A stretch of 64,000 nucleotides of DNA from an uncultured Candidatus Poseidoniales archaeon (GCA_902520595.1 CABYOM010000001.1:528-64527), one strand, 5' to 3'; counted from the stretch's first letter, positions 27,056 through 59,746 are shown. The notes: generated by a model not told the origin, from the sequence alone. Numbers and translations: made by a program.

Positions 27056-27128
27056 AGGGCGACTAATGTAAGAAACAACATAGAGATTGTGTCAGCAGAT
27101 TGAAGAGAACGGGGTTCTTGGGATATTT

Positions 27129-45282: not shown

Positions 45283-45375
45283 GCCTTGTTAAGCCAATGA
45301 GAAACTGAAAAACTGTTAAAATTAACAAAGTTTGGCCGTCATAGTAACTAAATAATATAGAAAGGAGGAACACTT
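45283..45375. promoter_or_regulatory. Divergent promoter region with perfect-armed palindrome TGTTAA-AA-TTAACA (45314-45327)
   Basis: Lies between the first minus-strand gene and the CARF-like/wHTH gene. The + side has AAATAATATAG and an AAAGGAGG RBS before the ATG at 45376. Confidence 0.5.
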
Positions 45376-47046
45376 ATGCAATTATGCCTCGTAGAATTTT
45401 CTCGTCCCAACAAAGATTCTGGCGAGTACTTTTCAGTAGATTTTACCGACGCAGTATCCAATCACGAAGTTGATGAAATCATTCTTTTCCAATCGACAGA
45501 CCACGTTTGCAATGAACTTAGAGAGGAGTTGGAAGCGAAATTCCCACAAGCAACCATCCGCCTTGAACAACTTGAACCAATTTCAACTGACATGATCATG
45601 CATGAGATGATGCAGCTGCCATGGAATTTATTGCGACAGATTCTTTCAAAACTTGACGAAAGTCAAGACTCTCTATTTGTTCTCGGTCGTGGCACAAGTC
45701 TGCATCAGCATGTCATGTGGCTAACTGCTGAAATTCGAGGAAGCAAGATTATTTCCATCGATGAGCCGAATGTTGAACTCTTTCATGTTGGCTCTTCAAG
45801 AATAAATACAGAGATCGCTAAAGCAACCCTTGGGGCGTTCGTTCGTCTGCATGTTCAGGAAATCAATGAAAACATTACTGGTAAAAATGGCTGGTTCAGT
45901 GCGAATGATATTTCAAAGTTGCCTGGTGCTGTTGCCTCAGGAATAAACGCAGCAACACAACTGGCCTTGAAAGAAGGGTATTTGCTTAAAGAAGACACAA
46001 CATCCGGTAATACAGTGTACAAATTAACTCCAAAAGGCTGGACTCTGTCCCTAAAAAATTACATTGAATCGAAAGGTGTTGAAGATGAAGGTTTGAAGGA
46101 GATTTTGATTTCTTTCGCCCGACTCCCAAAAATAGCGTCTGCAGTAGGTCACAATGCACGACCACCACTCCTTACCTCGCAAATTTCTGCTGCGGGCATT
46201 CACGATGGTTTACTGGTCGTTCTTCAAAAAATAGATGATTCAATTGAGGGGTCGCACGTAATGACACTGGATGAAGCGTGTGATTTTTTCACAGAGCCAG
46301 AACTTGTTGGGGATCTGAGGGCCGCACAAGAAATACTACGGCAAAGGTGTGTTTACGATTGTGTTGATGTGAAAAATCACTTGGTCGTCATTAATCCCGT
46401 CTATGGAGAAGATTTTCAATTGCTCTTCTCAAAACATCTTCTTGCTGTTCTTGAAGATTTTGAAAAGCAATACGGCCGCCATCACTGGAATTTTGACATT
46501 ACAAGTCCAGTGAATCAGATTAAGCCTGCCGTTTCATCTTTCTCAAACGTTACGAAAGCCTCAACATGCTACATTCTCAAGTCTAAAGGTGAAAAAGGAG
46601 CAGTAATAGAAAAAGTCGAACTCTCTCGACACCCTCGCTATTCCCACAAACTGTCTGTTCCAAACTGGGGAGCCCTTGAGATAATGAATACAAAAATCGC
46701 TTCTGGGTATCGGAATGTTCTAGTTGCACTCATGCTCCTCGAAAATGTAAATTCCAAGAAATCATCAAACAGCCTTCCGTTTGACGATGTGGAAGAAGAA
46801 AATTTTGATGGCGTGGAGTGGTCTGAAATTGTTACTTTTGTTCAAGATTTGAAAAGCCCATATGACCTCAAGAAAGGAATCATCACTGGAAGCTCAACTC
46901 GAATGAAAAAACTCATTCAATCAAAACTTGTTCGTCGTAATGTCGCTGATGAAGGGTCTTCAGTTCACCGCTTTTCACTCACCAATGAAGGCTACCTTGT
47001 AGCAAGTCAACTGTATGGCGACATTAGCCGGGAGGGGATGGCGTGA
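45376..47046 (+). CDS. Tandem CARF-like + winged-helix regulator (Csa3-like architecture, duplicated)
   Basis: The N-terminal Rossmann-like unit has 'VDEIILFQSTD' and 'LFVLGRGTSLHQHVMWLTAEI' (the GGT-type CARF loop). wHTH-like stretches are 'EGYLLKEDTTSGNTVYKLTPKGW' and 'KLVRRNVADEGSSVHRFSLTNEGY'. A second Rossmann-like unit lies between them. Confidence 0.4.
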   Translation: MQLCLVEFSRPNKDSGEYFSVDFTDAVSNHEVDEIILFQSTDHVCNELREELEAKFPQATIRLEQLEPISTDMIMHEMMQLPWNLLRQILSKLDESQDSLFVLGRGTSLHQHVMWLTAEIRGSKIISIDEPNVELFHVGSSRINTEIAKATLGAFVRLHVQEINENITGKNGWFSANDISKLPGAVASGINAATQLALKEGYLLKEDTTSGNTVYKLTPKGWTLSLKNYIESKGVEDEGLKEILISFARLPKIASAVGHNARPPLLTSQISAAGIHDGLLVVLQKIDDSIEGSHVMTLDEACDFFTEPELVGDLRAAQEILRQRCVYDCVDVKNHLVVINPVYGEDFQLLFSKHLLAVLEDFEKQYGRHHWNFDITSPVNQIKPAVSSFSNVTKASTCYILKSKGEKGAVIEKVELSRHPRYSHKLSVPNWGALEIMNTKIASGYRNVLVALMLLENVNSKKSSNSLPFDDVEEENFDGVEWSEIVTFVQDLKSPYDLKKGIITGSSTRMKKLIQSKLVRRNVADEGSSVHRFSLTNEGYLVASQLYGDISREGMA

Positions 47047-48236
47047 CTGAAGAAGGCGAGTTTACTGTTGAAGATTTGCGTAAATTCCACGAACAAGAAG
47101 GTGAAGAGCCAAGTCTTGTCTGCCCCCACTGCGGCCCTATTTTTACATTAATTGATGAAGTTGAAGAGATGCGTCTAAGAGGGTTTGTAAAACACCAAAC
47201 TTCTCAATCAGATGAAGTGTATATTCTCGCTAAATTTGGGATATGTGGCGGAAAACACGACGGCATAGAGAACATTTCGCCCTATGGGGTCCCACTCATA
47301 CGCGAAGACGATTATAATCCAACGATTCCAAGGGCGCAACCCACTCCTGAAGAGCTCGCAGAGTTTGACCAGGAATATGATGCACCAGCGTGGGTACCAC
47401 AACCAAGTAATGAGACAAAGAATCATACCAAAACAAGTGCATCTACCGCGTTAGGCGATTATTTGTATGAATTGGATCCTCCCTACGTTATTGAACAATT
47501 CATTTCGGCTTGGCAAGAAGAAGAACATAACGAAAATCTCGATAAACAGAATGCTGCAAATGAGTGGTTCGATTGTTTATGGCCATTCATTAAAGACACA
47601 TTGGACGTCAAGGAAGGAGCCACGATTAAAGAAAACCTACTTGTCACAGTCTACCTTCATAAAACCGCTGTAATGAGGCATATAGAGCCGCTCTGGATGT
47701 TCTGGAAAAGGTTTGGTATGGGAAAAAGAGCACTCGAAAGGGCGTTGTTATCATTTCCTGCTGATTTACCAAGTCACTTCCAAGACCTTTTCACGATTAT
47801 TGAACGTGATTATGAGCCTGAGCGCTCGACCATCGAATCACTTGTCAACACCCTTGTTCGCAATAAAATATGTCCTGCGATGAGTGGTTCAGAAATGCAA
47901 GCCTTCATCCAAAATGCGACGGATTTCCTTGGAAAAATGAAACAAGCACCCTACGGTAATGTGAGTTGTTATGAATTTTTGACTTTAGAATCTCTTATTG
48001 CAGATTCCATGGCTCTTGGCGGTCAAACGCTGCCCCATGCTGGAATCATTGAACTTGTCTGTGTCTATGCAACCATGAGGCAAAAAAGCAGTTCTGCTGA
48101 TGGGTTCTTGCGGACAGTTTTCCCCAGTGAGGCTGACCCTCTCTGGAAGGCTGTTCTCTCACAACACGGAGCAAAAATCGGAATCGAACGAATGATTAAC
48201 AACTTGATAACTCATATCGAAACACATACACAATAG
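47043..48236 (+). CDS. Hypothetical protein with N-terminal Zn-ribbon-like motif
   Basis: 397 aa. The GTGA overlap with the upstream stop suggests coupling. 'CPHCG...CGGKH', then a helical region. No family recognised. Confidence 0.5.
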   Translation: MTEEGEFTVEDLRKFHEQEGEEPSLVCPHCGPIFTLIDEVEEMRLRGFVKHQTSQSDEVYILAKFGICGGKHDGIENISPYGVPLIREDDYNPTIPRAQPTPEELAEFDQEYDAPAWVPQPSNETKNHTKTSASTALGDYLYELDPPYVIEQFISAWQEEEHNENLDKQNAANEWFDCLWPFIKDTLDVKEGATIKENLLVTVYLHKTAVMRHIEPLWMFWKRFGMGKRALERALLSFPADLPSHFQDLFTIIERDYEPERSTIESLVNTLVRNKICPAMSGSEMQAFIQNATDFLGKMKQAPYGNVSCYEFLTLESLIADSMALGGQTLPHAGIIELVCVYATMRQKSSSADGFLRTVFPSEADPLWKAVLSQHGAKIGIERMINNLITHIETHTQ

Positions 48237-48256
48237 GCAGAAGAGGGGGTGAAGAA

Positions 48257-50038
48257 ATGATCGACCGAAAAAACAAGTCTGACATCGATCGAGCCAGGGA
48301 GGTGATGTTCAACCGAGAGGCCCCTACTTTCACTTGCAATTCTATTCCTGTAGGCAATCAACTTCACATAGTGAACTCTTTCAGTGAAGTTTCTCCATTG
48401 CATACAACAGATGCAAATGAATCACTTCCGGCAGTGAATATTCAGTTTTTGTCAAGCACTAATTCGGTCGAAATGAAAGGAATAATTGACCGTGGGAAAA
48501 AAATCGGCTTTCTTCTAATTTTCATAAACTGGCCAGGGAACGAAGAGAATCTTCAAAACGCATTCAAAGAAATCATCAAACAGAAAGTACCTTTGGGTCA
48601 AAACAATCAAAACCAAAATATTGAAATAAATACGCACTCTATCCGTAAAGGTGATTTCCAAAAGAAAATGTTGATCTTAGATAGTATTACTGAGAGCACA
48701 TCTGGAATATTTATTTTTGATTTTGACACCGGGATAGAAGGTCATTCCAAACGTCTCGAAAAAATCGGAGATTTTGCTTTAGATGTGGATTTTAATATCA
48801 GCGACCTACGTAAAAAAGTTCAGGAAGTCAAAGGAAAAGAAAAAGTAATTCTCGGTCTTTTCTCCAACTTAGTGCAAGCTAAAGTCGTTACAAATGAATT
48901 TCTCCTCAGGAACTTTATTACACTTGACGATAATTGCTTTTCAACACTAATTTTACCTGCTTCATATTTTCCTGGCGAATTTAATATGTATTTTGAACTT
49001 GCAGGAGTCATACAATCGATAATTAATTTTCTTACAACCACCCAAGATTATCGCAAAGGTATTATCGATGCCCAAAATGAAATTTTTCTAAGATGTATTG
49101 AAAATAAATTGCCGCAGAACGAAGCAACAGCAATTGCATGTAGCATCTATTTTGGACTTGAATCTCACAACATTTTGTCCAATAATAAAATTACTGTAAC
49201 TCCAACATCTGAAGACCTTCCATCTACGGGAATACATGATATTGATGGCGCCATTGAGAATGTAGAAAAATTTGCATTTGATGAATGTCAAAAGATAGAA
49301 AAGCAGATTAATCATGCGGTTTACTCATCTCTACGGAGCATAAATATACTATCAAATCAATTAAACGATTACCACAAACTTCTGTTCTCAGTTGTCGTTG
49401 GCGCTCAAAGTTCAATTTGGGAAAACCCTCAAGCGAGAAAGAAACTCAAGAATGAGGACAGAATTAAGGAAATGTGGAAATCTTTTTGTTCAGGAACAGC
49501 CCAATCTCTTATTGGCAAACAGACATACGGTGAAAACACGACTGAGGGGCAGATTCTGTATGCATTCGGTAAAAGCATTAAGCAGATTCAGCAGAATCGT
49601 GGCAAAGGGTCTTCTTTAATTTATCAAATTATTACTGAGGGACAAGACGATGTAGAAGACCCACTTGATACTCTTGAAAGATTAAAACTTAACATGAAAA
49701 GCAGTGAACATAACTTTGGGGCTGCTGTAAAGCCTCAAATACATCCAATTAACCTAATTCTGGACGAACAAATTTTGAAGTATTTGCACGTTCTATATCT
49801 CAAATGTAAGAGTATTACTCATACGCCTGAAATCTTAAAACAAGCCCCTGTTGGTAACGAGTTTGAATTTTTGTTTGTATCTTCGAAAGAAAAAAATCAC
49901 ATTAATAAGAGTGATTTGAAAACTATTCTGACTAACTTAAAAGATGCAGTTCAAGTATACTATCCCGGTGGTCTTTCATATGCGACAAGTACGCCAATGT
50001 TTAGAGAGACATCTTTGCAATGGTGGGTAGGTGATTAA
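48257..50038 (+). CDS. Hypothetical protein
   Basis: 593-aa N/K/I-rich ORF in tight operon spacing. No family recognised. Confidence 0.5.
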   Translation: MIDRKNKSDIDRAREVMFNREAPTFTCNSIPVGNQLHIVNSFSEVSPLHTTDANESLPAVNIQFLSSTNSVEMKGIIDRGKKIGFLLIFINWPGNEENLQNAFKEIIKQKVPLGQNNQNQNIEINTHSIRKGDFQKKMLILDSITESTSGIFIFDFDTGIEGHSKRLEKIGDFALDVDFNISDLRKKVQEVKGKEKVILGLFSNLVQAKVVTNEFLLRNFITLDDNCFSTLILPASYFPGEFNMYFELAGVIQSIINFLTTTQDYRKGIIDAQNEIFLRCIENKLPQNEATAIACSIYFGLESHNILSNNKITVTPTSEDLPSTGIHDIDGAIENVEKFAFDECQKIEKQINHAVYSSLRSINILSNQLNDYHKLLFSVVVGAQSSIWENPQARKKLKNEDRIKEMWKSFCSGTAQSLIGKQTYGENTTEGQILYAFGKSIKQIQQNRGKGSSLIYQIITEGQDDVEDPLDTLERLKLNMKSSEHNFGAAVKPQIHPINLILDEQILKYLHVLYLKCKSITHTPEILKQAPVGNEFEFLFVSSKEKNHINKSDLKTILTNLKDAVQVYYPGGLSYATSTPMFRETSLQWWVGD

Positions 50039-53000
50039 ATTGCAAAACAAATACCAACTTCGGGAACTTGCCCATGAGAACTTAAAACCGTCCAATAAAG
50101 AGTTTGTTCCTCGAAGTGCATTTGATAAACATAAAAGTGGAGAGGTATTTGTAAACCCGTTACTTGCCCATTATGACAAATTCTGGGATGTTGAAGAAAG
50201 ATCTTTTTCCTTTATGCAAACTATGTGCAATGTACTAAAAGGCCCTATAGAATATGAAAAACAAAAAGCAATCGATGCCACACAATATCTGCTACTCGGC
50301 AAACCATCTTCTGGGAAAACCACTGAATTAAGACGAATTTCTCATGAAATACTTGGTCAAATTAATGATGATCAAATCATCCACCTTTGCAGCCTTCAAA
50401 ATACTTCAGCAGTTCAGCGAGAAATCGAATCAAAAGAGGATTTATGGAATTGGATGATGAGAAGCCATGAATCAAAGGTTTGGGCTGAAAAGAGATATTC
50501 TTTGGAACAATTCTCTCAACTACATCTAGAAAATAACTTGAAACCAATACTCTTAGTCGATACCGTCGATCTTCTCATTTACGGAAAAATTGGAACAGAA
50601 AGCAGCATGAAAATCACCGAGTTTTGGAAAGAACTTGTATCGGATATAGAATTACTTGGTTGGACAGTTCTGTGGAGTTGTAGAACATATGAATGGAATT
50701 TGATGAAAGAACATAATTCTGCAGATAGAATTAATCTCATTGAAGTATCTCTTCCAATCTTGAATGAGAAAGAAATTACTCAAAGGCTTGAAAGTATTCC
50801 TACCGCGGATTATTTGCAAAGGCACATGGTTACACTTTCATGGGCATTTCCAATTGTAATAGGCCACTACATTAATTACAGACAAAAATTTGACTGGGCA
50901 CCAATCATCGAAAATTTTCGTGAATTACATTATGAAATGCGAAGAACGAGTTGCGATGAGGTAATAGTGGCTAACAATGCTGGACCTGTAACTTGGATTG
51001 CTAGAGAATTGAACGAGGAAATAGCTACAGACATATTGTATAAAGGAATCAGAAGCGCAATAATTGATTACATTGTGAAGGTGTACCATTATGGTTTGGA
51101 AAAAGTGGAAAATCGGTGGGAGGAGATTGAAAAGGAATTTTACTCTGCTGCAAGACCAAAATCAAGTGTATCCCGTATACAAATTGATGCTTCTTACTTA
51201 GAAGATTACGATGACAAAACCCTTACTGAGGCCTTGATTAAAAGAGCCGTAGGTTTCGGAATATTAAACAAGAATGGCGAAACCTTAGAGATGACTCACC
51301 AACTATTTGCTGAGTATTGTGTTTGGATACACAAGAGAGAAACAGACCGAGAATTAATGAAAAAATTCCCCTCAACCATATTTAGAAGTGAGTTAAAAGA
51401 CGCTGACCAAGCAGTTTTGAATGAAGGTAGAGATTGGTTCCTCCCCTATATCCTGTTTAACATGGATTTAGCTAAATTCCCAGACCTTCCTTCCTTCGAA
51501 AAATCAACAACACATGCATGGAAACAATTGGCAGACTTTGCTCGACATGAACAAAAATCAGAATTACCAAAAACTAAGGCCAAGCACATCGAGAACCACA
51601 ATGTTCCGTTTAATCATTCACGATTGATAAATAAGGAAAAAGAACAATTGTTAGATAATTTAAACAGTACTTTTCCTCTAATCATTAACGGTCCACCAGG
51701 AGTTGGCAAATCTCACCTTTCGTATATCTGGATAGATAAGATGGCTTTAGGTTTGGACTGGGAGCAACTTTTACCCGATAAAAAGAGGCAGATTTTTGTT
51801 GCAGACATTAATGCTTTACCTACCGCCTATTTTATGACTCAAAGTCAAAGGTTAGCCAGTCAAATCTCTGATAAAATCGATGAATATTATGGGGTAGACA
51901 CACGGCCGGTTAAATTTGAAAATTGGGGCGTGAGTGAATATCTCGCTGATTTAGAAAAGTTACTTGGAATTGAAAGTGAAACTTTTTCGTTCGAAGATTT
52001 TGAAAAAGAATGGAAAGAATATTCAAAAGGAAATAATTCGAGAGGTATAGCCGATCTGAATAAAATGTCCATCCAAGCACTGTGGAATGAGTATTTGCAT
52101 AATGTTATCGATAATCAAGGCGATCGCAAAGATTTTGAAAAATACAGAAAGTCAATAGACCACATTTTCAAGTATTGTAAACACCCTGTTGACGCTAAAC
52201 AAGTGTTTGGGAAATGGGCAATTGAAAGACGTAAACGTAGCCCTAAACTCTCTCTTTCTGAGCAAGCTGGCCAGTGTATCAAGCATGTTCTTCCCATATT
52301 AGCTAACGGAAGTTTAGAACAGCGAGAATTGATACATACCATGCAACCAGATATTCTCGTTCTTGATGAAATACAGGATTTGCCTGCGCCGGTAATCTTG
52401 CTGATGCTCATTATGCACAAAGGTGAGACAAACACTGTAATGATGTGCGGAGATGATGAACAAACTCTCGAGTTAATTCAATTCAACTGGAGCACAGTAT
52501 TTAAACACATATCTGTTGCCATACATGAGCTCTATGAAAGTTATAAAGAAGATTCAGAGAGCATAATTTTTATTGAAAAATGGGTAAATATACAAGATCA
52601 ATCACTCAACAAAATCCAAGAAAAAAACACTAGTTCCCTGAAAATGGTTGAGCGAAGTATTCCTGAAATTGTAGATGTATTAAGTCAATCATGGCGTACA
52701 AGTGTCACCTCTCTTGAAGTGCCAGATGAAATTAAAATTAATCGAAACAAAGGAACTGGTGCCATAATAGCTGGACAGTTCTCCATTGATCGCGAAAATC
52801 GAAACGAAGAGAACGACATCGATCAAGGTGTTGAATATTATGAAGTTAAGAATACAGATTGGTTCGAAAAAGTAGCAACTGAAATCTATGAGCAGGCTTT
52901 AGATGTAGCGATTCTTCTTCCCGATCTGACCCAGTGGGAGAGGTATAAACAACTTCTCGAGGAATGGGATATCAACATTGAAATTTGGACTCCTCGTAAG

Positions 53001-56000
53001 ATTAAAGGACTCGAATATTCTGTTGTTATTGCAGTTAATCCTTGGCATATTGATAAAGAACATTTCACGGATGTGATTGGAAAGAATATCACTTCTTGGA
53101 GTGAGGCAGAACAATACGTAACAGATAATCATGGAACATCTGAACATTCAGAAGCGAAAATCAATGCGATTGCTCTATTAGCTAACCAAAGACGAAGACA
53201 TTCAAATATCATGCTCTCGAGAGGAATGGACCAATTGTTCATCATCTCTGAAAATGAGTCGGGGATGATTGAGACCAAAGATCCAAACTTTAGAGACCAA
53301 CAAAAAACAATACTTGACGATAACGCTGATTTGTTCAGTGAAAAAACCAATAAAAGTAACTATCAAGGTATCAATCGATTGATTAAGCGTCTTAGCATGA
53401 TTATTCTTTCAGTTGAAACTGAAAGTGATAGAAATCAGGTAATGTACAAATCAAAACATATTCTTCAAACTCTAAAGTTAGATGAGAATGTTGAAGATTA
53501 TTTACCCTTTTACCTACTTTCAAAGATTACTTCAGATCATTTTGACGAAGATGAAAAGAACGACCTCCTTGGAGTCGGGCTAAGTAGATTTAGTGAATTG
53601 AGTTCATTAAACCCGCCTCTCGGAGTGAAAAATTCTCATTCAGCTTATGGAAAGTGGAGTGACTTTGACGAATTACAAAGTTTTTGGGAGTATACCGAAA
53701 GTCTTGTGTCCGTATGTAAAGAGGACGAAGGCAGATTGAAAATTCCAATTCTTCTTTTCAACGAATACAATTCTAGGTTAGAAGAGTTCATTTTACGATT
53801 CTCTAGACCAAATGATAGTTGTTTCAAACTAGACGATACCCTCGATCAAAAGGAAAAAGAATCTCAGAAGAATATTATTTCCGACTATATCGTAAATCGA
53901 ATCTTTGGTGGTCAGAAAGAAAGTGAAATCGAAGCGGAACAATGGTGCACTGCTGCGAAAACCATCAATCTAAGTACATTTTCAATTACCTTAGATGTTG
54001 AGAAGAATCCGAGATACAAACTGCTGTTAGATATTTTACAACGACAAGAAATGGACGATTATAGTGATGAAATTTCGAAGAAATCTTCTTCCAAGAGCAA
54101 GGATAAGAACGAATTACTGAAAATCGATACTGATTTTTGGAAAGAGGGGAGTCATCACCTTTCCCGTATTGACCCTTATGATTTATTTGATATTAGCAAA
54201 AGAATTTGCAGCCAATTAACGATATCAAGCAATTCTCTCAGTATCGAAGGTGTGAATTTTCTCAGTAAGCTAATCCCTAGAAGTTTGAAGGAGAGAAGGC
54301 AAGAATTGGAAAATCGATTCAACACCGGGGGTATAACCGATTTATGTAAAATTTGCAATGCTTTAGAAAAACAAGCATCGAACAACAAAATATCTCTACC
54401 TCTAATCTCTTCACAGATTGAAGATTATGTTTCACAAATCATAGCCAACAAGTTATTTGAGAATATAGCAAATCCAAGTGTCCGGAAAGCATTGTTAGGT
54501 AATTCATTCGGATTATACGATCTGTTTAAATCTAAGATCATGAAAACTAAAAACAAAGAGTTCAATTTAGGTAAGGCTATGCAATTAGGCCGTTTGTTAA
54601 TAAATGATCTAAGCCATGGGAATAAAGCCCCAAAACCGAGTGATTGGGAACTTACAATCATAACAGATCTTCAAAACTTTGCCACAACAGAAATTGGCCG
54701 AGATCGTTTTGTCACAACTACCTACATGGAAGACATAAAAATTACAGACGTAGAAGACATTTTTTGGAACGGAAACGACAAGACTGAAATGCTTCCAAAA
54801 CAAATTCAGGGAGAATTCCGAGAGACCCTATTTGCAACTTCATTACGCTATGAACTCGATGATAGAGGACGGAAAAACCTTATCTTTTTCTTAATTAAGA
54901 AGACATACATTGACAATTTTTCAAGATATACTATCCAAAGAAATGAGGAAGTAATGAGAGAAAAGATTGCTGAAAAAATAAACCTACTTCCTCTTAAACA
55001 AAGTGAGGTAGATTCAGAGAAATGGAATATTATTCTCGACGATGAAGAATTCGCCAAAAAATTGGTCTCTATACCCTATGAAGGCGTTTTATCTGATATC
55101 GACCCAGATATATATTTTGGAAGAACAGTGGGCGGCTTTATCAATGCCAAGTCATGGAATAAATCCTTGCAGAAGGAACTGACGAGTTTAAATAAAGGGA
55201 AAAGTATGAAACTTGCCATTGCCGAGATCCAGAAGCGAACTGATTCTGCGTATGATGCAGCAGGCGGCGAAGGAATGGGTTCTACCGAACTTCAATCACT
55301 TAAAATCAGTACACATGAACATTTGAGAAAGAATATATCTCTTCCACATTGGAGAGAGCAAGTGCTAAGAAAAAACAACAAGAATCTTACAAGTAGATGG
55401 GCGAATGATTTTATTCCAAATCTAAGTGCTAAACAATCAATAATTTTGTATTCGGATGTTAACAAAATAAAGAGGAAATTGTACAAATCCTATCTACACC
55501 TCGAAAAGGTGTTCAAAGAGGCGAAGGGAAAACTGAATTCGCGTAATTTACGCGAAACACAGTCTCTGGCGCATAAAGGTTTTACATGGATTAAGAACAA
55601 ATGGGGTGATGCAGAAGTGGAAGTATTTTTCACCGCCATAAAGAAAGAAATTGAATCATTCGATATGAATTCCTTCCTTGAAAAATTTGTCAATTATTTC
55701 CATACGAATATTAAGCTAAAGATGCAATGGAAGTCTCTTAGTAGTTCATTTTTAGAAGTTGAATATCCAAATACATACGAACTATTAGGACAGTTTGGAA
55801 TTAAAGAAATGAGGGATTTACTTGATAGCTTAACTGGGTCATCACGGGGGATTCACGAGTTTTCACTACTCAACATACCTTTAGACAGTCAGAAATTCTT
55901 GATTGACTTCTTACAAAAGTTTGGAAAAGATGAGAAATACATCCCGAGTACAACCCCTATAGATGAAAAACTAGATTCTTCAGAAACAATTGGAAATTAT

Positions 56001-56180
56001 CAAGTATTGAAACCACAATCCAAGCAGTTAAGAGCGACCTATAAGCAAAGAGATTTGCTGATTGTTAAAGCATTGCCGGAATTGGAGAGCGATTCCATCC
56101 GTAATCTACGTCCTTTAACGCGATTTGAAGAGGAAGTGTTACGGTCGATTTCTTCCGCGTTCAACGATGGACAACTCTAG
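50031..56180 (+). CDS. Giant (2049 aa) P-loop NTPase + SF1 (UvrD-like) helicase-core protein with long helical C-terminal region
   Basis: The first P-loop is 'LLGKPSSGKTTEL' with Walker B 'ILLVDTVDLL'. The second is 'IINGPPGVGKSH' with 'ILVLDEIQDL', 'VMMCGDDEQTL', 'QSWRTS', 'KIKGLEYSVVIAV' and 'IMLSRGMDQLFII' (the UvrD-type motif order). The GTG start overlaps the previous gene by 8 nt. Confidence 0.65.
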   Translation: MIKLQNKYQLRELAHENLKPSNKEFVPRSAFDKHKSGEVFVNPLLAHYDKFWDVEERSFSFMQTMCNVLKGPIEYEKQKAIDATQYLLLGKPSSGKTTELRRISHEILGQINDDQIIHLCSLQNTSAVQREIESKEDLWNWMMRSHESKVWAEKRYSLEQFSQLHLENNLKPILLVDTVDLLIYGKIGTESSMKITEFWKELVSDIELLGWTVLWSCRTYEWNLMKEHNSADRINLIEVSLPILNEKEITQRLESIPTADYLQRHMVTLSWAFPIVIGHYINYRQKFDWAPIIENFRELHYEMRRTSCDEVIVANNAGPVTWIARELNEEIATDILYKGIRSAIIDYIVKVYHYGLEKVENRWEEIEKEFYSAARPKSSVSRIQIDASYLEDYDDKTLTEALIKRAVGFGILNKNGETLEMTHQLFAEYCVWIHKRETDRELMKKFPSTIFRSELKDADQAVLNEGRDWFLPYILFNMDLAKFPDLPSFEKSTTHAWKQLADFARHEQKSELPKTKAKHIENHNVPFNHSRLINKEKEQLLDNLNSTFPLIINGPPGVGKSHLSYIWIDKMALGLDWEQLLPDKKRQIFVADINALPTAYFMTQSQRLASQISDKIDEYYGVDTRPVKFENWGVSEYLADLEKLLGIESETFSFEDFEKEWKEYSKGNNSRGIADLNKMSIQALWNEYLHNVIDNQGDRKDFEKYRKSIDHIFKYCKHPVDAKQVFGKWAIERRKRSPKLSLSEQAGQCIKHVLPILANGSLEQRELIHTMQPDILVLDEIQDLPAPVILLMLIMHKGETNTVMMCGDDEQTLELIQFNWSTVFKHISVAIHELYESYKEDSESIIFIEKWVNIQDQSLNKIQEKNTSSLKMVERSIPEIVDVLSQSWRTSVTSLEVPDEIKINRNKGTGAIIAGQFSIDRENRNEENDIDQGVEYYEVKNTDWFEKVATEIYEQALDVAILLPDLTQWERYKQLLEEWDINIEIWTPRKIKGLEYSVVIAVNPWHIDKEHFTDVIGKNITSWSEAEQYVTDNHGTSEHSEAKINAIALLANQRRRHSNIMLSRGMDQLFIISENESGMIETKDPNFRDQQKTILDDNADLFSEKTNKSNYQGINRLIKRLSMIILSVETESDRNQVMYKSKHILQTLKLDENVEDYLPFYLLSKITSDHFDEDEKNDLLGVGLSRFSELSSLNPPLGVKNSHSAYGKWSDFDELQSFWEYTESLVSVCKEDEGRLKIPILLFNEYNSRLEEFILRFSRPNDSCFKLDDTLDQKEKESQKNIISDYIVNRIFGGQKESEIEAEQWCTAAKTINLSTFSITLDVEKNPRYKLLLDILQRQEMDDYSDEISKKSSSKSKDKNELLKIDTDFWKEGSHHLSRIDPYDLFDISKRICSQLTISSNSLSIEGVNFLSKLIPRSLKERRQELENRFNTGGITDLCKICNALEKQASNNKISLPLISSQIEDYVSQIIANKLFENIANPSVRKALLGNSFGLYDLFKSKIMKTKNKEFNLGKAMQLGRLLINDLSHGNKAPKPSDWELTIITDLQNFATTEIGRDRFVTTTYMEDIKITDVEDIFWNGNDKTEMLPKQIQGEFRETLFATSLRYELDDRGRKNLIFFLIKKTYIDNFSRYTIQRNEEVMREKIAEKINLLPLKQSEVDSEKWNIILDDEEFAKKLVSIPYEGVLSDIDPDIYFGRTVGGFINAKSWNKSLQKELTSLNKGKSMKLAIAEIQKRTDSAYDAAGGEGMGSTELQSLKISTHEHLRKNISLPHWREQVLRKNNKNLTSRWANDFIPNLSAKQSIILYSDVNKIKRKLYKSYLHLEKVFKEAKGKLNSRNLRETQSLAHKGFTWIKNKWGDAEVEVFFTAIKKEIESFDMNSFLEKFVNYFHTNIKLKMQWKSLSSSFLEVEYPNTYELLGQFGIKEMRDLLDSLTGSSRGIHEFSLLNIPLDSQKFLIDFLQKFGKDEKYIPSTTPIDEKLDSSETIGNYQVLKPQSKQLRATYKQRDLLIVKALPELESDSIRNLRPLTRFEEEVLRSISSAFNDGQL

Positions 56181-56530
56181 AAGGTGAGTACTTTTTCACT
56201 GCTTTGAACCCAAGCTGAACATTCAGCCATGGTTGAGAATTGTGCTCCTTCGTAGTATGGTTGGCCCTTCAACACACCACAACGGTTCTGACAGGTTCCG
56301 CAGACTTTGACTGGAACGCCGTTGGCAATCAGTTCCTTGGTCATCGCCACCATGTCTTCACTGCCTTCAGGTGGTTGGATTCCATCACGTGCGAGGTCCA
56401 CACTGTCGTTCATCAAGAACAATCGAACCTCGGCTCCATCGTTGTTGAGTTGACGAGCCAAGCGAAGTGCGTTCCAAGTGACGTCGGTTCCGTCGTACGG
56501 TTGATGATTCAAGATGATGAGTATAGCCAT
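56177..56530 (-). CDS. DsrE/DsrF-like (YchN-fold) sulfur-relay family protein
   Basis: 'MAILIILNHQPYDGTDVTWNALRLA...VRLFLMNDSV...VKVCGTC'. Its stop overlaps the stop of the 2049-aa gene (CTAG). Confidence 0.65.
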   Translation of the reverse strand: MAILIILNHQPYDGTDVTWNALRLARQLNNDGAEVRLFLMNDSVDLARDGIQPPEGSEDMVAMTKELIANGVPVKVCGTCQNRCGVLKGQPYYEGAQFSTMAECSAWVQSSEKVLTF

Positions 56531-56626
56531 ACCCGTTCCAAAACGAGACGGTGTTTGAAAGCAACGATGCTGAGTTGCTGGGGATTGAAAACATCAATTC
56601 AAAAGGAGAACTGATGACCATTGTCT

Positions 56627-59600
56627 ATGAGTGGTTCATTTGCCAGGTTTGCCAAATGGCTCATCCCTCATCGAAAAAGAGTTCACGTCTCGGTATTCTT
56701 ACTTAGTATTCTCATGATTCCTGGAGTCTTGACTGCTCTGCAACCGATTGACATGGAATCCTATGAAATGGATTCTCCAGAACTTGAAGCCCAAGCGATT
56801 ATTGATGACGAATTTTCAAACTCTGAAATCATTCTCGGATTTTTGGTTTCTGCACGAGATCCAAATTATGTTCCTGCAATAGAAGACTGGTCTCCCGTAG
56901 CCCGAATGAGTGACGGAGCACCGGATTATTCTTCGCTTCCCAGTGTCACTGAAATGCTTGATGCTGGCGAACCTTGGGGCGGGATTAACGCACCAACGGC
57001 CGGCATCATGAACCTGACCTTGCTTCAAGAAATTGATCACAAAGTGGACCTCGTCCAGGAACATCCGTTGAGTAAAGCCATGAAACCACTGGTCAATGAC
57101 GTCACTGGAAATCAAGCACCTGGAGCAATCTCACTCTCTGACCATTTCCGTGGTTTCATGAACGGCTCCTCAATTCTCACTCAACCCGGATTAACAACGC
57201 TTGGAATCGTTACAGACCCGCCTACAAACTGGACAGATTGCGGCGTCTTGGAATGCCTTGAATTTGATGATGAGAATGTCACTCAGCAGCACATCGACAT
57301 GGCTGCGGCCCGAATGGCTGAAGCATCGGACAACAATTTCCTGAGATGGTTATCACTTGACAGAGGATTTGTTGCGGATATGAATGCGTTGCAAACTGGA
57401 CCCGTTGGTGGCTCACTCAACAGTAACGGGACATGGCAAGACGCATTTGTTGCAAACGGTCGATGGTCTGCATCCTCAACTTGGCTCTTAGTCCAGCTTG
57501 ACCGAGGTACCCTTGAAGAAATGGGTTGGGAAGTCATTTGGAAGGACGCTCTACAAGAAAAGAGCCTTGATTTCTCTGAAGACGGTGTTAAAATTGGGGG
57601 TTATCGTGTTGCCGATGGAACGCTCGTCCTCCACCCTCCACAATATACAGAGGAATATTGTATAGAACTCATGGAAGAGGAAGGGACCGGTTGTTCCACT
57701 GAATGGTCGTACATGGATTTGGAAGGCCACTTGCGCTCTAACGACCGGACGACCATTACACTGCTTCTGGGACAAGGCGTGAATGTAGAGGTAAATCGTG
57801 AATTGCAAGCAAGCGCAGGACTTGTCATTCTGATGGGTTTGGCAATTGTTGGATTGTTGTATGTCAGTCTACGCAGGGTGTCTGATGTTGTCATCGTCAT
57901 GTTTGCTTTGGGGACTGCTCTTGTCTGGATGCAAGGAATGATTGGACACTTCTCGACCATCACCTCATGGTTCGGAATTTCCATCATTGCTCGGTCTCAA
58001 TTCTCAAATTTGTTACCGATTTTGGTTCTTGCACTCGGAATTGACGATTCATTACACGCGCTGCATCGCTACAAAGAGGAACGATTGAAAGGAAAAACCT
58101 CACATGTTTCTGCAGAGATTACGCTGCAACGGGTTGGAAGAGCAATTTGCCTTACTTCAGTGACGACGATGGCTGCTTTTGCTGCGAACCTGTTCAGCGA
58201 TATTGCAGTGCTTCGCTCGTTTGGAATCGAAGCTGCGCTCGGCATATTTTCTGCATTCCTGCTCACCGGTTTATGGGTTCCAATGATCCGACTCTCTGTC
58301 GATGAATGGCTGGTCAAACGCGGCAAGAGTATCGAAGAGAAATCGGGTGTGACCCACTTGGTCCCCGAAGAATGGCTTCAAAGTATTGCATTAAATTCTG
58401 GAACTTTCCGTAAATCTGCACTCATTGCTACCATCGCGTTCCTACTTACCGTACCTGCTGCATGGGGCATGGCTCAACTCGAAGGGGATTTCGCTGTCGA
58501 AGATTTCTTGGATGAGCGCTCCGATTTTGCGATTGGAGTCTATGAAATATCAGAGAGATTTGCCGATGAAGGCGAACCCGCAAATTTACTTATTGAAGGC
58601 GATGTACTCGACCCGGAAGTATTTGCAGCCATCGATGTATTCCGACAAAACATGGATGTGCTTCCCGAAGGAGTACCTGATAAAATCACTCGCCAACCTG
58701 ATGGGACCATCGACATCTTAGCACTCGATGAAATGGTGATCGCTGCCCAAGGTTCACTGGTCTTGGATCCAACACCGTTTGAAGCAGCTGGATGGCAAGT
58801 TAACGAAACCGGACACGGCATGAATTGCTCAACTGCTGGAAGCGGCCCTCTGATGGATTTGACCGACAGAGAATGTCTCGCTTTCTTCTACGGTTTCCTT
58901 TCTCTTAACGGCGTTCCCGGTATCGGGCCAATACCAGACATCCCACCGAGCATTGTCGCCCTCTACATTGCCCCTGCTGTCGAATTGGACCCTACCCAGC
59001 CGTGGCTTGACGTCAACGGCGATGCGGCTGCATACGAACGAATGTTAATCCGCTTTGGAATGACTGCCCCTGAAGATTTCCCTGGCATGGCAGGCGGTAT
59101 GGAAGAAGTCTGGAGAGACCTCTCTCCATTCACCAATCTTTCCACTGGAGACCAACTTGAAGCCGGTGAAGTCAGCGAAGATGAGCCACTCACATGGGTC
59201 ATGCCTACCGGCCGTCCTGTTACTCGCTTTGTTGCTTCAACAACGATGCAAAGTGAGATGCAATCTTCTCTCGGACTCGGCTCACTGTTCGTATTCATCA
59301 CACTCTCTATCGGCTTCCGTTCGTTTAAACAAGCCACAGTTACCTTGGTACCTATTCTCTTGGTTGTGGTCTGGCTGTATGGACTCATGTATATGGCAGG
59401 CTCATCATTGAACATCGTGACGGTCACTATTGCTACGATTTCGTTGGGCGTCGGTATAGATTACTGTATTCACGTCACAGAGAGGTATAGGGAAGGCCGG
59501 GAATCCGGCGAAAGCCATGATGAAGCATTGATTGGAATTGGAGGTGCCTGTGGTCTCGCTCTCATCGGAAGTGCTGCCTCAGACATCGCTGGATTCAGTG

Positions 59601-59746
59601 TCATAGCACTTTCACCAATGGGACTATTCACAAACTTTGGAATCTTTTCCGCTGCGATGATTGCATTCTCTTTAGTTGCAAGTCTGGTCTTAACCACTGC
59701 CGCACTGGGATTGGTTGCCCGTAAACCTTCAGCGGAGGCATCGTGA
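56627..59746 (+). CDS. RND-superfamily (MMPL/SSD-type) exporter
   Basis: Two 5-6-TM bundles, each with 'G(I/V)(G)IDD/Y..H...RY(K/R)EE' ('LGIDDSLHALHRYKEE' and 'VGIDYCIHVTERYREG'), separated by large soluble loops. Confidence 0.7.
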   Translation: MSGSFARFAKWLIPHRKRVHVSVFLLSILMIPGVLTALQPIDMESYEMDSPELEAQAIIDDEFSNSEIILGFLVSARDPNYVPAIEDWSPVARMSDGAPDYSSLPSVTEMLDAGEPWGGINAPTAGIMNLTLLQEIDHKVDLVQEHPLSKAMKPLVNDVTGNQAPGAISLSDHFRGFMNGSSILTQPGLTTLGIVTDPPTNWTDCGVLECLEFDDENVTQQHIDMAAARMAEASDNNFLRWLSLDRGFVADMNALQTGPVGGSLNSNGTWQDAFVANGRWSASSTWLLVQLDRGTLEEMGWEVIWKDALQEKSLDFSEDGVKIGGYRVADGTLVLHPPQYTEEYCIELMEEEGTGCSTEWSYMDLEGHLRSNDRTTITLLLGQGVNVEVNRELQASAGLVILMGLAIVGLLYVSLRRVSDVVIVMFALGTALVWMQGMIGHFSTITSWFGISIIARSQFSNLLPILVLALGIDDSLHALHRYKEERLKGKTSHVSAEITLQRVGRAICLTSVTTMAAFAANLFSDIAVLRSFGIEAALGIFSAFLLTGLWVPMIRLSVDEWLVKRGKSIEEKSGVTHLVPEEWLQSIALNSGTFRKSALIATIAFLLTVPAAWGMAQLEGDFAVEDFLDERSDFAIGVYEISERFADEGEPANLLIEGDVLDPEVFAAIDVFRQNMDVLPEGVPDKITRQPDGTIDILALDEMVIAAQGSLVLDPTPFEAAGWQVNETGHGMNCSTAGSGPLMDLTDRECLAFFYGFLSLNGVPGIGPIPDIPPSIVALYIAPAVELDPTQPWLDVNGDAAAYERMLIRFGMTAPEDFPGMAGGMEEVWRDLSPFTNLSTGDQLEAGEVSEDEPLTWVMPTGRPVTRFVASTTMQSEMQSSLGLGSLFVFITLSIGFRSFKQATVTLVPILLVVVWLYGLMYMAGSSLNIVTVTIATISLGVGIDYCIHVTERYREGRESGESHDEALIGIGGACGLALIGSAASDIAGFSVIALSPMGLFTNFGIFSAAMIAFSLVASLVLTTAALGLVARKPSAEAS

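What the first reader, a model, noticed from the sequence alone, without database searches (positions are those of the whole stretch)
47043..56180. Tightly coupled three-gene unit ending in a 2049-aa dual P-loop / UvrD-like helicase giant
Start/stop overlaps (GTGA at 47043-47046, 8 nt at 50031-50038) tie the 397-aa Zn-ribbon protein and the giant gene into the operon; the 593-aa unknown follows the 397-aa gene after a 20-nt gap. The giant combines an N-terminal STAND/AAA-like NTPase ('GKPSSGKTTE', 'ILLVDTVDLL') with an SF1 helicase core ('GPPGVGKSH', 'VLDEIQD', 'CGDDEQT', 'KGLEYSVVIAV', 'LSRGMDQLFII'). About 900 residues of helical sequence of unknown function follow. NTPase-plus-helicase giants are typical of prokaryotic anti-mobile-element systems, but I cannot assign this one to a named family.
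Basis: partly seen in the sequence, partly recalled or inferred. Interest (0 to 1): 0.6.

Follow-up and report, generated by a model that had tools for sequence, protein, structure and literature searches.

The report
Swappable archaeal NACHT-helicase giant gene pair
A marine archaeon (Poseidoniales) carries a 2,049-residue protein that joins an immune-receptor-type ATP switch to a UvrD-type DNA motor; with a co-evolving partner gene of unknown fold it forms a cassette that is exchanged between strains at one fixed site, so it is most likely an undescribed antiviral sensor.

Summary
All ORFs, both start/stop overlaps and every quoted motif are present. The unit is drawn slightly wrong: the GTGA overlap ties the 397-aa gene to the upstream 556-aa gene, giving a four-gene operon (45376-56180).

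Comparison of about 70 related loci splits this operon into two modules.
- The 556-397 pair belongs to the neighbouring ubiquitin-like (Ubl) cluster. It occurs with that cluster in four genera, and in four of five such loci no giant gene is in view.
- The 593-aa partner plus the giant is a separate cassette. Its history is unlinked to its flanks. Locus L077 has flanks 92% identical to the window but a cassette only 25-35% identical. Locus L060 has flanks 60-63% identical but a cassette 88-99% identical.

The giant consists of:
- a complete NACHT-like STAND module;
- a UvrD-like SF1 helicase, with all catalytic residues of both modules invariant in 51 of 52 relatives;
- a roughly 970-aa tail that has no detectable homology between clades.

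The partner has no sequence or fold relative. The family is nearly confined to Poseidoniales and occurs in 10 of 401 species genomes. Relatives lie next to Cas10-like, GmrSD and DNA-methylase genes.

Best reading (confidence 0.55): an unnamed antiviral STAND-helicase sensor pair. I class it as a new variant of a known kind. No function has been tested.

The parts
45314..45327 (+). Palindromic island promoter box TGTTAAAATTAACA upstream of the 556-aa gene. It is the only such box in the operon.
   Evidence: exact match to TGTYAANNTTRACA. No match lies between 45328 and 56180. Transcription of all four genes from this box is inferred, not shown.
45376..47046 (+). 556-aa protein, the first gene of the operon and a putative wHTH regulator. 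It belongs to the Ubl-cluster module, not to the giant's cassette.
   Evidence: Homologues are always followed by a 397-like gene and lie next to a 369-like gene in four genera. The distant homologue in L036 has a C-terminal winged-helix hit. dN/dS is 0.11-0.15.
47043..48236 (+). 397-aa protein with a CxxC...CxxxH motif (C27, C30, C68, H72) and a nearly invariant C-terminal domain (about residues 150-390). It is paired with the 556-aa gene.
   Evidence: GTGA overlap; alignment; the C-terminal domain recurs in proteins of about 430-535 aa in 7 other genomes. No Pfam or PDB match.
48237..48256 (+). Left junction of the swappable cassette: a 20-nt spacer with the ribosome-binding site GAGGGGGTGAAG.
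   Evidence: Nucleotide identity to L003 and L027 (~90%) ends at 48236-48279. The spacer and the first ~9 nt of the partner gene are conserved among cassettes that are only 30-45% identical.
48257..50038 (+). 593-aa partner protein: a predicted alpha/beta domain (~83-233) plus a helical bundle (~340-570). No known relative. It co-evolves with the giant.
   Evidence: AlphaFold2 model: pLDDT 75.5, pTM 0.70. No PDB or BFVD fold match at E < 0.01. No Pfam, PADLOC, NCBIfam, PHROGs or PDB sequence match. It directly precedes the giant in all 33 clade A loci. Identity to the window tracks that of the giant, r = 0.99.
50031..56180 (+). 2049-aa giant protein: STAND NTPase, SF1A helicase and a variable tail.
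50211..51530 (+). NACHT-like STAND module (aa ~61-500). Walker A is S93-G95-K96. Walker B is D177-T178-x-D180. Sensor-1 is W215..R218. LPxL lies at 241-244. The winged-helix motif is H423-Q424-L425..E428 (THQLFAEY).
   Evidence: Alignment. All these residues are invariant in 49-51 of 52 full-length relatives. Fold matches to NLRP3/NLRP2 NACHT and Avs3. Pfam NACHT and NPHP3_N hits in family members.
51621..53270 (+). UvrD-like SF1A helicase core (aa ~531-1080). Motif I is GPPGVGKS (K560). Motif II is DEIQD (779-783). Motif III is GDDEQT (807-812). Motif IV includes R875. Motif V is KGLEY (992-996). Motif VI is LSR (R1064).
   Evidence: invariant in at least 51 of 52 (V873 and P878 of motif IV vary). 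Foldseek top hits are UvrD 2is6, Rep 1uaa and PcrA 3pjr, E = 1.7e-8 to 2e-7. Pfam AAA_19 hits 13 of 13 members.
53271..56177 (+). Variable C-terminal tail (aa 1081-2049). No recognisable domain, no repeats and no conserved catalytic-type residues. It is the fastest-evolving part.
   Evidence: Mean pairwise identity falls from 38% in the NTPase modules to 20% at the C-terminus. dN/dS is 0.37-0.44 against 0.20-0.27. There is no homology between clade A tails and clade B or C tails (hhalign probability below 1%). No self-repeats.
56177..56180 (.). Right junction of the cassette: CTAG, where the giant's TAG stop overlaps the stop of the convergent DsrE-like gene (56177-56530, minus strand). GC content jumps from 0.35 to 0.47 here.
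   Evidence: Similarity to other loci resumes at 56178.

Best explanation
The core of the finding is a two-gene cassette. It comprises a 593-aa partner of unknown fold, translationally coupled to a 2049-aa cytoplasmic protein. That protein has an N-terminal NACHT-like STAND ATP switch, a UvrD-like SF1A helicase motor and a ~970-aa variable tail. I read the cassette as an antiviral or anti-mobile-element sensor-effector pair specific to Poseidoniales archaea.

Shown:
- Both ATPase sites are intact and under strong purifying selection across the family.
- The tail and the partner are the variable parts.
- The pair is kept in the population as many deeply diverged alleles. These are exchanged by recombination at the conserved junctions: the end of the 397 gene with its ribosome-binding site on the left, and the DsrE stop codon on the right.
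- In this genome the cassette is docked behind the 556-397 gene pair of the Ubl island, with no promoter box of its own.

Inferred mechanism:
- The variable tail, the partner or both recognise a virus-derived protein or DNA structure, while the helicase loads on DNA.
- Recognition releases the STAND switch through nucleotide exchange and oligomerisation, as in Avs and bacterial NACHT proteins.
- The output is then either ATP-driven stripping or unwinding of viral DNA by the motor, or activation of the partner as effector.

Whether the output also feeds the neighbouring Cas10-like and Ubl modules is open.
For: Architecture:
- establish the domains.
- In 52 full-length relatives every STAND and SF1 signature residue is invariant in 49-51 or more, apart from two variable motif IV positions, although overall identity is only 20-30%.

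Accessory and rare:
- The family is in 10 of 401 Poseidoniales species genomes.
- Among 1.84 billion representative proteins only 36 match at E < 1e-30.
- Genome-contig hits are Poseidoniales MAGs, unclassified 'Methanobacteriota archaeon' MAGs and one Woesearchaeota MAG.
- GC is 0.35-0.37 against 0.47-0.49 in the flanks.

Cassette exchange:
- Identity tables show unlinked histories.
- dS is 0.14-0.20 for the cassette but ~0.97 for 556/397 against L024. Against L003 the pattern is the reverse.
- The breakpoints coincide with the cassette ends.
- Partner and giant identities correlate at r = 0.99. The 397 gene and the giant correlate at r = -0.08.

Modular sensor-like design:
- The chassis is conserved, but tails are not homologous between clades and partner families are unrelated.

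Defence neighbours in independent contexts:
- Cas10-like gene, then partner, then giant, in one overlapping operon (L086, L092).
- DEAD helicase and GmrSD_N, then partner, then giant (L111).
- N6/N4 DNA methylase directly downstream (L001).
- A Cas10-like gene and the Ubl island in the window itself.

Precedent: helicase modules are reported among effector domains of STAND-type conflict systems (PMC7159879).
Against: - No function has been tested, and the organism is uncultured.
- No effector-type catalytic domain (nuclease, TIR, SIR2, protease, pore) was found in the giant or the partner, so the killing or blocking step is unknown.
- PADLOC finds only a 38-residue P-loop match to mad8.
- Several relatives lie among ordinary-looking genes: the g2 site has radical-SAM and SNO genes, and clade C lies between M50 and M28 peptidase genes.
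- Overall dN/dS is below 1 (0.28-0.32), so diversifying selection is not demonstrated. The diversity could reflect old alleles kept by recombination for other reasons.
- The structure models are of moderate confidence (pLDDT 74-76).
Confidence: 0.55

Rival explanations
1. The giant and its partner are not a stand-alone system. They are the variable sensing arm of a larger multi-module pathway formed with the island's Cas10-like cyclase, the 556 (wHTH) - 397 pair and the Ubl/E1/E2/JAMM/Cdc48 cascade. Detection by the STAND-helicase would trigger cyclic-nucleotide signalling, Ubl conjugation or both. Alternatively, the 556 regulator would induce the giant after an alarm.
For: - The association recurs in two deeply diverged clades and in two orientations. 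It is tandem behind the 397 gene in 17 clade A loci. It is convergent with 397-like and 556-like genes that are only 26-30% identical in 5 clade B loci (L040, L087, L091, L093, L100).
- A homologue of the island's Cas10-like gene is translationally coupled upstream of partner B and giant B in L086 and L092.
- In the window the cassette has no promoter box of its own.
Against: - The pair occurs without any of these modules: L001, the g2 site in L017/L018, L064-L069, and all of clade C.
- The Ubl/556/397 module occurs in other genera with no giant in view (L036-L039).
- The convergent orientation rules out obligatory co-transcription.
- Co-location in one hot spot or defence island would give the same pattern.
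- Cassette and flanks have unlinked histories, which argues against tight co-adaptation with 556/397.
Confidence: 0.25
2. The cassette is a selfish or addiction-type module, or a cargo of a mobile element. It would persist by horizontal exchange rather than by protecting the host. One example is a helicase used by an integrated element.
For: The cassette has low GC, a patchy distribution and horizontal exchange between diverged backgrounds.
Against: - No integrase, transposase or replication-initiator gene was recognised among the neighbouring genes that were searched.
- No homologue was found in 2.9 million viral contigs beyond a generic helicase motif.
- Each clade stays at one chromosomal site (tree).
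- Exchange occurs by homologous flanks, not by element ends.
- PHROGs gives nothing.
Confidence: 0.08
3. The giant is a housekeeping DNA repair or replication helicase (UvrD/Rep-like) with accessory subunits.
For: The UvrD-like fold and the full motif set are present.
Against: - The family is present in only 2.5% of genomes of the order.
- It is hypervariable and swappable.
- It is fused to a STAND switch.
- It has no sequence-level match to any solved helicase.
Confidence: 0.02

Closest known systems
Avs (antiviral STAND) and bacterial NACHT (bNACHT) proteins
   Same: A central STAND/NACHT ATP switch carries all signature motifs. The chassis is conserved while the presumed sensor region is large and highly variable. 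The genes are rare and accessory. Fold matches include Avs3 (8dgc) and NLRP3.
   Different: There is no N-terminal effector domain: the NOD begins at about residue 60. A complete SF1A helicase lies between the NOD and the tail. The tail has no TPR- or LRR-like repeats. A coupled partner gene is nearly always present. No PADLOC Avs or NLR model matches.
UvrD/Rep/PcrA SF1A helicases, and the defence helicase GajB of Gabija
   Same: The fold and motifs I-VI are shared. Like GajB, this is a UvrD-type motor placed in a defence-type context with a partner protein.
   Different: Sequence similarity is below PDB phmmer detection. A GajB model hits only 1 of 13 members, at E ~2e-4. There is no GajA-type OLD/Toprim nuclease partner. 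The protein is three times longer and is fused to a STAND module.
STAND/NTPase-centred 'conflict systems' with helicase effector modules (Kaur, Burroughs, Iyer and Aravind 2020, PMC7159879)
   Same: The concept is the same: an NTP-dependent switch combined with nucleic-acid-targeting modules, including SF1 and SF2 helicases, and showing diversification.
   Different: Those systems were described mainly in multicellular bacteria, and the SF1 module typically accompanies a PIN RNase. Here there is no PIN or other nuclease. The host is a planktonic archaeon, and the partner is an unknown fold.
The 2,237-aa NACHT-UvrD giant of related Poseidoniales (clade C; earlier scan finding e1-2624658)
   Same: The N-terminal STAND plus helicase chassis is the same, with identical catalytic residues. 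It also shows presence/absence and divergent versions at one fixed site.
   Different: It lies at a different chromosomal site, after an M50-peptidase-like gene. It has no coupled partner gene. Its tail is not homologous to the clade A tail. It is only 17-18% identical over the chassis.

Membership tests
STAND NTPase (NACHT-like clade) | Walker A GxxxxGK[ST] and Walker B hhhhDxxD | tested here: met
   GKPSSGKT (K96) and LLVDTVD (D177, D180). These are invariant in 51 of 52 relatives.
STAND NTPase (NACHT-like clade) | Sensor-1 arginine after the Walker B strand, followed by an LxPL strand | tested here: met
   WSCR (R218) and LPIL/LPPL (241-244). R218 is invariant in 51 of 52, and the LPxL residues in 49-50 of 52. 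The assignment rests on motif order and the model's strand pattern.
STAND NTPase (NACHT-like clade) | Winged-helix domain with a conserved histidine (the 'FxHxxFQEFLAA'-type motif) | tested here: met
   EMTHQLFAEYCVW. H423, Q424 and E428 are invariant in 51 of 52 and L425 in 50 of 52. The motif lies directly after a predicted beta-hairpin at 412-421. Equivalence to the NACHT motif comes from my own knowledge of that family.
STAND NTPase (NACHT-like clade) | Pfam NACHT (PF05729) at or above the gathering score | tested here: inconclusive
   The window protein has no NACHT hit, and AAA scores 20.8 against a cut-off of 21.2. NACHT hits 4 of 13 clade A members, best E = 1.2e-5. A clade C relative scores 30.8 against 26.7, above the cut-off.
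SF1A UvrD/Rep/PcrA-like helicase | Helicase motifs I, Ia, II (DExQD), III (GDxxQ), IV (R), V (KGLE) and VI (R) | tested here: met
   All motifs are present. K560, D779-E780-Q782-D783, G807-D808-Q811, R875, K992-E995 and S1063-R1064 are invariant in at least 51 of 52.
SF1A UvrD/Rep/PcrA-like helicase | Two-RecA-domain fold with 1B and 2B insertions | tested here: met
   Foldseek top hits are UvrD 2is6, Rep 1uaa and PcrA 3pjr, with E = 1.7e-8 to 2e-7, probability 1.0 and target TM-score 0.43-0.46. The model is of moderate confidence.
SF1A UvrD/Rep/PcrA-like helicase | ATP-dependent 3'-5' DNA translocation or unwinding | not testable with these tools
   This needs biochemistry.
Gabija (GajA/GajB) | A GajB UvrD-like protein encoded next to a GajA OLD-family ATPase/Toprim nuclease | tested here: not met
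   No GajA model hit for the partner, the 397-aa or the 556-aa protein. GajB models hit 1 of 13 giants, weakly.
MADS (mad1-mad8) | Full-length match to mad8 together with the other mad genes and a methyltransferase | tested here: not met
   The mad8 match covers only residues 86-124, which is the P-loop, out of a 314-position profile. No other mad gene was hit.
Avs / bNACHT named families | N-terminal effector domain, then the NOD, then a C-terminal repeat sensor, with a match to a PADLOC or DefenseFinder model | tested here: not met
   No effector domain precedes the NOD. No PADLOC Avs or NLR hit. No repeats in the tail. DefenseFinder itself was not available.
Bub/Bil ubiquitin-like conjugation operons (as a component) | Constant co-occurrence with E1, E2, Ubl and JAB genes | tested here: not met
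   The partner and giant occur without these genes in L001, L017/L018, L064-L069 and clade C. The Ubl cluster occurs with no giant in view in L036-L039.

The most novel reading that the evidence does not exclude
Poseidoniales archaea would possess a modular, eukaryote-like innate immune pathway. A hypervariable NLR-type receptor fused to a helicase, together with its variable partner, would detect viruses and pass the signal to a CRISPR-free Cas10-like cyclase and a ubiquitin-like conjugation and Cdc48 machinery. The partner-giant cassette would be the exchangeable 'specificity' locus of that pathway, kept polymorphic in the population by virus pressure.
Probability: 0.2. Interest if true: 0.85.

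Novelty: new variant of a known kind. Interest (0 to 1): 0.6.

Why it matters
STAND/NLR-type receptors and helicase-based sensors are two main themes of innate immunity in all domains of life. A natural fusion of both has not been described in the papers I could search. This one is encoded with a co-evolving partner of unknown fold and is kept as a swappable allele series in one of the most abundant archaeal groups of the surface ocean.

The fusion offers a clean test of how an ATP switch and a nucleic-acid motor are coupled. The unlinked histories of cassette and flanks give a ready population-genetic signal of virus-driven balancing selection in uncultured plankton. The repeated adjacency to Cas10-like and Ubl modules makes the question of cross-talk between these pathways directly testable.

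The family is small and lineage-restricted, its function is untested, and a related clade was already flagged in this scan. The claim is therefore moderate.

Tried and rejected
Searches that gave nothing useful:
- PDB sequence searches with the single giant and with family profiles of the giant, the partner, the 397-aa, the 556-aa and the clade B partner proteins. They returned only P-loop-level or non-significant hits.
- NCBIfam and PHROGs.
- PADLOC. The only consistent hit is mad8, restricted to the 38-residue P-loop. It was rejected as membership after reading PMC13662399.
- Fold search of the partner model against PDB and BFVD. Best E = 0.014 (bestrophin, probability 0.33), rejected as noise. 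I considered a TIR or flavodoxin-like reading of the partner's alpha/beta domain, but no TIR structure was matched, so I dropped it.
- hhalign of clade A against clade B partners: no homology.
- Viral contigs: only generic helicase-motif hits. The partner alignment was too variable to scan with.
- Self-comparison of the tail for repeats: none.
- Transmembrane scan: none, all four proteins look soluble.
- Sigma-70 promoter and terminator scan: not different from shuffled sequence, and not relevant to an archaeon.

Literature: searches of the available papers found no description of this family or of a STAND-UvrD fusion.


Full report
**1. Observation**

The ORF map confirms three + strand genes at 47043-48236 (397 aa), 48257-50038 (593 aa) and 50031-56180 (2049 aa).
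- GTGA lies at 47043-47046, preceded by GGGAGGGG.
- A 20-nt spacer with GAGGGGGTG precedes the 593-aa gene.
- The giant's GTG overlaps the 593-aa stop by 8 nt.

The GTGA overlap is with the stop of a fourth gene, 45376-47046 (556 aa), so the coupled unit has four genes. The only copy of the island's palindromic promoter box in this stretch is at 45314-45327. The giant's TAG overlaps the stop of a convergent DsrE-like gene in a CTAG at 56177-56180. GC is 0.35-0.37 over 48-56 kb and rises to 0.47 at 56.2 kb.

The window is archaeal: it encodes Pus10 with an archaeal THUMP domain. Related records are titled Poseidoniales, Poseidoniaceae or Poseidonia.

**2. The giant protein**

Single-sequence searches give only sub-threshold hits:
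- AAA_19 covers residues 768-813 and AAA covers 87-186.
- PADLOC mad8 covers residues 86-124.
- PDB phmmer finds nothing.

Across 13 family members the picture is consistent. AAA_19 hits 13/13, Viral_helicase1 11/13, NPHP3_N 9/13 and NACHT 4/13. UvrD-helicase hits one member at E = 1.3e-8.

An AlphaFold2 model of residues 1-1150 (13-sequence alignment, pLDDT 73.7) matches these solved structures:
- UvrD, Rep and PcrA best (E = 1.7e-8 to 2e-7, probability 1.0);
- Upf1-type helicases;
- NACHT modules of NLRP3 and NLRP2;
- Avs3.

The alignment with distant relatives shows a complete STAND signature:
- Walker A GKPSSGKT;
- Walker B LLVDTVD;
- sensor-1 WSCR;
- LPxL;
- winged-helix THQLFAEY.

It also shows helicase motifs I, II (DEIQD), III (GDDEQT), IV (R875), V (KGLEY) and VI (LSR). 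In 52 full-length relatives from three clades these signature residues are invariant in 49-52 of 52, apart from V873 and P878 of motif IV, although overall identity is 20-30%. Both ATPase sites are therefore functional requirements of the family.

The tail (aa 1081-2049) has no domain hit, no repeats and no conserved acidic, histidine or lysine constellation. None of the four proteins has a transmembrane segment.

**3. The partner and the other two genes**

The 593-aa protein has no hit in Pfam, PADLOC, NCBIfam, PHROGs or PDB, either alone or as a profile. Its model (15 sequences, pLDDT 75.5, pTM 0.70) shows an alpha/beta domain followed by a helical bundle. It has no significant fold match in PDB or BFVD. 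Only 7 protein clusters at 90% identity are found among 5.8 billion.

The 397-aa protein has invariant C27, C30, C68 and H72 and a nearly invariant C-terminal half. The 556-aa protein is similarly conserved. A distant homologue of it has a C-terminal winged-helix hit.

**4. Two modules, not one unit**

Five metagenomic or MAG loci with the same four-gene order gave incongruent identities. A metagenome scan raised the number of tandem loci to 14, and three more were recognised from the junction sequence.

| Locus compared with the window | 556 / 397 identity | Partner / giant identity |
|---|---|---|
| L077 | 92 / 92% | 25 / 35% |
| L003 | 92 / 92% | 43 / 48% |
| L024 | 75 / 82% | 92 / 88% |
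| L060 | 60 / 63% | 99 / 88% |

- Partner and giant identities correlate (r = 0.99). The 397 and giant identities do not (r = -0.08).
- Against L024, synonymous divergence is 0.14-0.20 for the cassette and ~0.97 for 556/397. Against L003 it is 0.3 for 556/397 and saturated for the cassette.
- The diversity therefore reflects exchange of old alleles, not a local burst of amino-acid change.
- Nucleotide similarity breaks at 48236-48279 and resumes at 56178.
- The spacer, the ribosome-binding site and the first ~9 nt of the partner gene are conserved among cassettes only 30-45% identical. The DsrE end is conserved on the other side. These are the likely recombination anchors.
- dN/dS is 0.28-0.32 for the cassette (0.37-0.44 in the tail) against 0.11-0.18 for the neighbours. 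The cassette genes are functional and somewhat less constrained, but positive selection is not shown.

**5. Where each module occurs**

The 397-like C-terminal domain is found in 7 further genomes of three other genera. In the five loci fetched it always follows a 556-like gene and lies beside a 369-like gene. Where the contig extends far enough, E1, Ubl-E2 and Cdc48 homologues are also present. Four of the five (L036-L039) have no giant in view.

The partner-giant pair also occurs without these genes:
- L001 (with a neighbouring AhpC gene and a downstream N6/N4 DNA methylase);
- a fixed site in a second genus (L017, L018);
- L064-L069, which share the DsrE/MMPL right flank but have a different, non-coding left flank.

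At the second-genus site, L017 and L018 have flanks 72-86% identical. Their giants are 27% identical and their partners 22%. In all 33 clade A loci the partner directly precedes the giant.

**6. The wider family**

A profile of the STAND-helicase chassis finds 327 proteins at E < 1e-3 among 1.84 billion representatives. Only 36 score below 1e-30, and the full-length members are 1,950-2,420 aa.
- In species-representative genomes the hits are Poseidoniales and unclassified archaeal MAGs. One 3,288-aa Woesearchaeota protein also matches.
- In the order, 10 of 401 genomes carry a member, and 5 of 67 high-quality genomes do.
- No real homologue is found in viral contigs.

A tree shows three clades.
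- **Clade A** contains this gene and has the 590-660-aa partner.
- **Clade B** giants are ~2,000-2,100 aa. A coupled upstream 450-530-aa gene forms its own family with no detectable relation to the clade A partner (hhalign probability 0.2%). That family has no Pfam or PDB match.
- **Clade C** giants are 2,237-2,423 aa, follow an M50-peptidase-like gene and have no partner. One member is split into a 455-aa NTPase and a 1,924-aa helicase.

Tails of clade A are not homologous to those of B or C. Clades B and C share about 240 residues. The design is a conserved double-ATPase chassis with exchangeable tail and partner.

**7. Neighbourhood evidence for function**

- In L086 and L092 a homologue of the island's Cas10-like gene is translationally coupled upstream of partner B and giant B. 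It is 27% identical over its full length (E = 3e-53) and keeps the AGDD motif.
- In L111 the pair follows a DEAD-box helicase and a GmrSD_N (DUF262) gene.
- In five clade B loci the giant is convergent with 397-like and 556-like genes that are only 26-30% identical to those here.
- In the window, the Cas10-like gene and the Ubl/E1/JAMM/Cdc48 cluster lie 5-19 kb upstream.
- Other sites show no recognisable defence genes.

**8. Interpretation**

The most economical reading is an antiviral or anti-mobile-element STAND-helicase sensor with a co-evolving partner (confidence 0.55). Shown are the architecture, the selection on both ATPase sites, the rarity, the cassette exchange and the variable tail and partner. 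The ligand, the oligomerisation step and the output are inferred. No effector enzyme was recognised, which is the main gap.

The chief rival (0.25) is that the pair is the sensing arm of a larger pathway with the Cas10-like, 556/397 and Ubl modules. The repeated adjacency in two clades and two orientations favours this. The many stand-alone occurrences and the unlinked histories argue against an obligatory link. A selfish-element reading (0.08) and a housekeeping reading (0.02) fit the data poorly.

**9. Comparison with known systems**

The pair works most like Avs or bacterial NACHT receptors and like helicase-based sensors such as Gabija's GajB. It fails the membership tests for each named family (see the membership table). 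Helicase modules in STAND-centred conflict systems have been noted computationally (PMC7159879). A recent census of prokaryotic STAND families does not mention such a fusion in its main text (PMC13581612). An earlier agent of this scan described the clade C giant. My data agree with that description and place the present gene in a sister clade that has a partner.

**Verdict**

This is a real, well-defined feature. I class it as a new variant of a known kind, with interest 0.6.

Noticed in passing
L086:150-9977 and L092:3-5006: A homologue of the window's orphan Cas10-like gene (31124-33421; 27% identity, AGDD motif kept) is the first gene of an overlapping three-gene operon: Cas10-like, then a 516-531-aa partner, then a ~2,083-aa STAND-helicase giant (clade B).
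   Followed up: partly
L111:1373-14087: A four-gene same-strand string: a DEAD-box SF2 helicase (1007 aa), a GmrSD_N/DUF262 protein (632 aa), partner B (524 aa) and giant B (2070 aa). This is a giant embedded among recognised restriction-type genes.
   Followed up: partly
L040, L087, L091, L093, L100: Clade B giants lie convergent with 397-like and 556-like genes, with a 369-like gene beyond them. This is the same neighbourhood as in the window, but with the giant cassette inverted.
   Followed up: partly
L076:2-7806 and L079:1-7175: In some clade A variants an extra 1,075-aa gene with no Pfam hit is coupled downstream of the giant, before DsrE. In L076 the giant is split, with its tail as a separate 666-aa ORF.
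   Followed up: no
L023:3102-10302: A clade C giant is split into a 455-aa STAND NTPase gene and a 1,924-aa helicase-plus-tail gene, so the two modules can work as separate chains.
   Followed up: no
L051:250-10116: A 3,288-aa relative in a Woesearchaeota MAG is the only clear member outside Poseidoniales-related and unclassified euryarchaeal MAGs.
   Followed up: no
L042 (CAJJCP010000020.1): In this Poseidoniales MAG all four operon genes are broken into 2-4 ORFs each. This is either frameshift-rich assembly or decay. Here the giant is followed by homologues of the window's aminotransferase (27087-28325) and MMPL (56621-59746) genes. That hints that the whole 28-56 kb island lies between these two core genes.
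   Followed up: no
L017 versus L018 (same genus, same site): The flanking genes are 72-86% identical and the downstream 491/514-aa gene of unknown function is 82% identical. The giant and partner between them are only 27% and 22% identical.
   Followed up: partly
window 56177-56180: The stop codons of the giant (+ strand) and of the DsrE-like gene (- strand) overlap in the palindrome CTAG, leaving no intergenic spacer between the convergent genes.
   Followed up: yes
window 47043-48236 and L036:9154-10701: The 397-aa family is longer (about 430-535 aa) in other genera. One member gives a weak PADR1-type zinc-ribbon hit (E = 0.005). Only the C-terminal ~240 residues are shared across genera.
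   Followed up: partly
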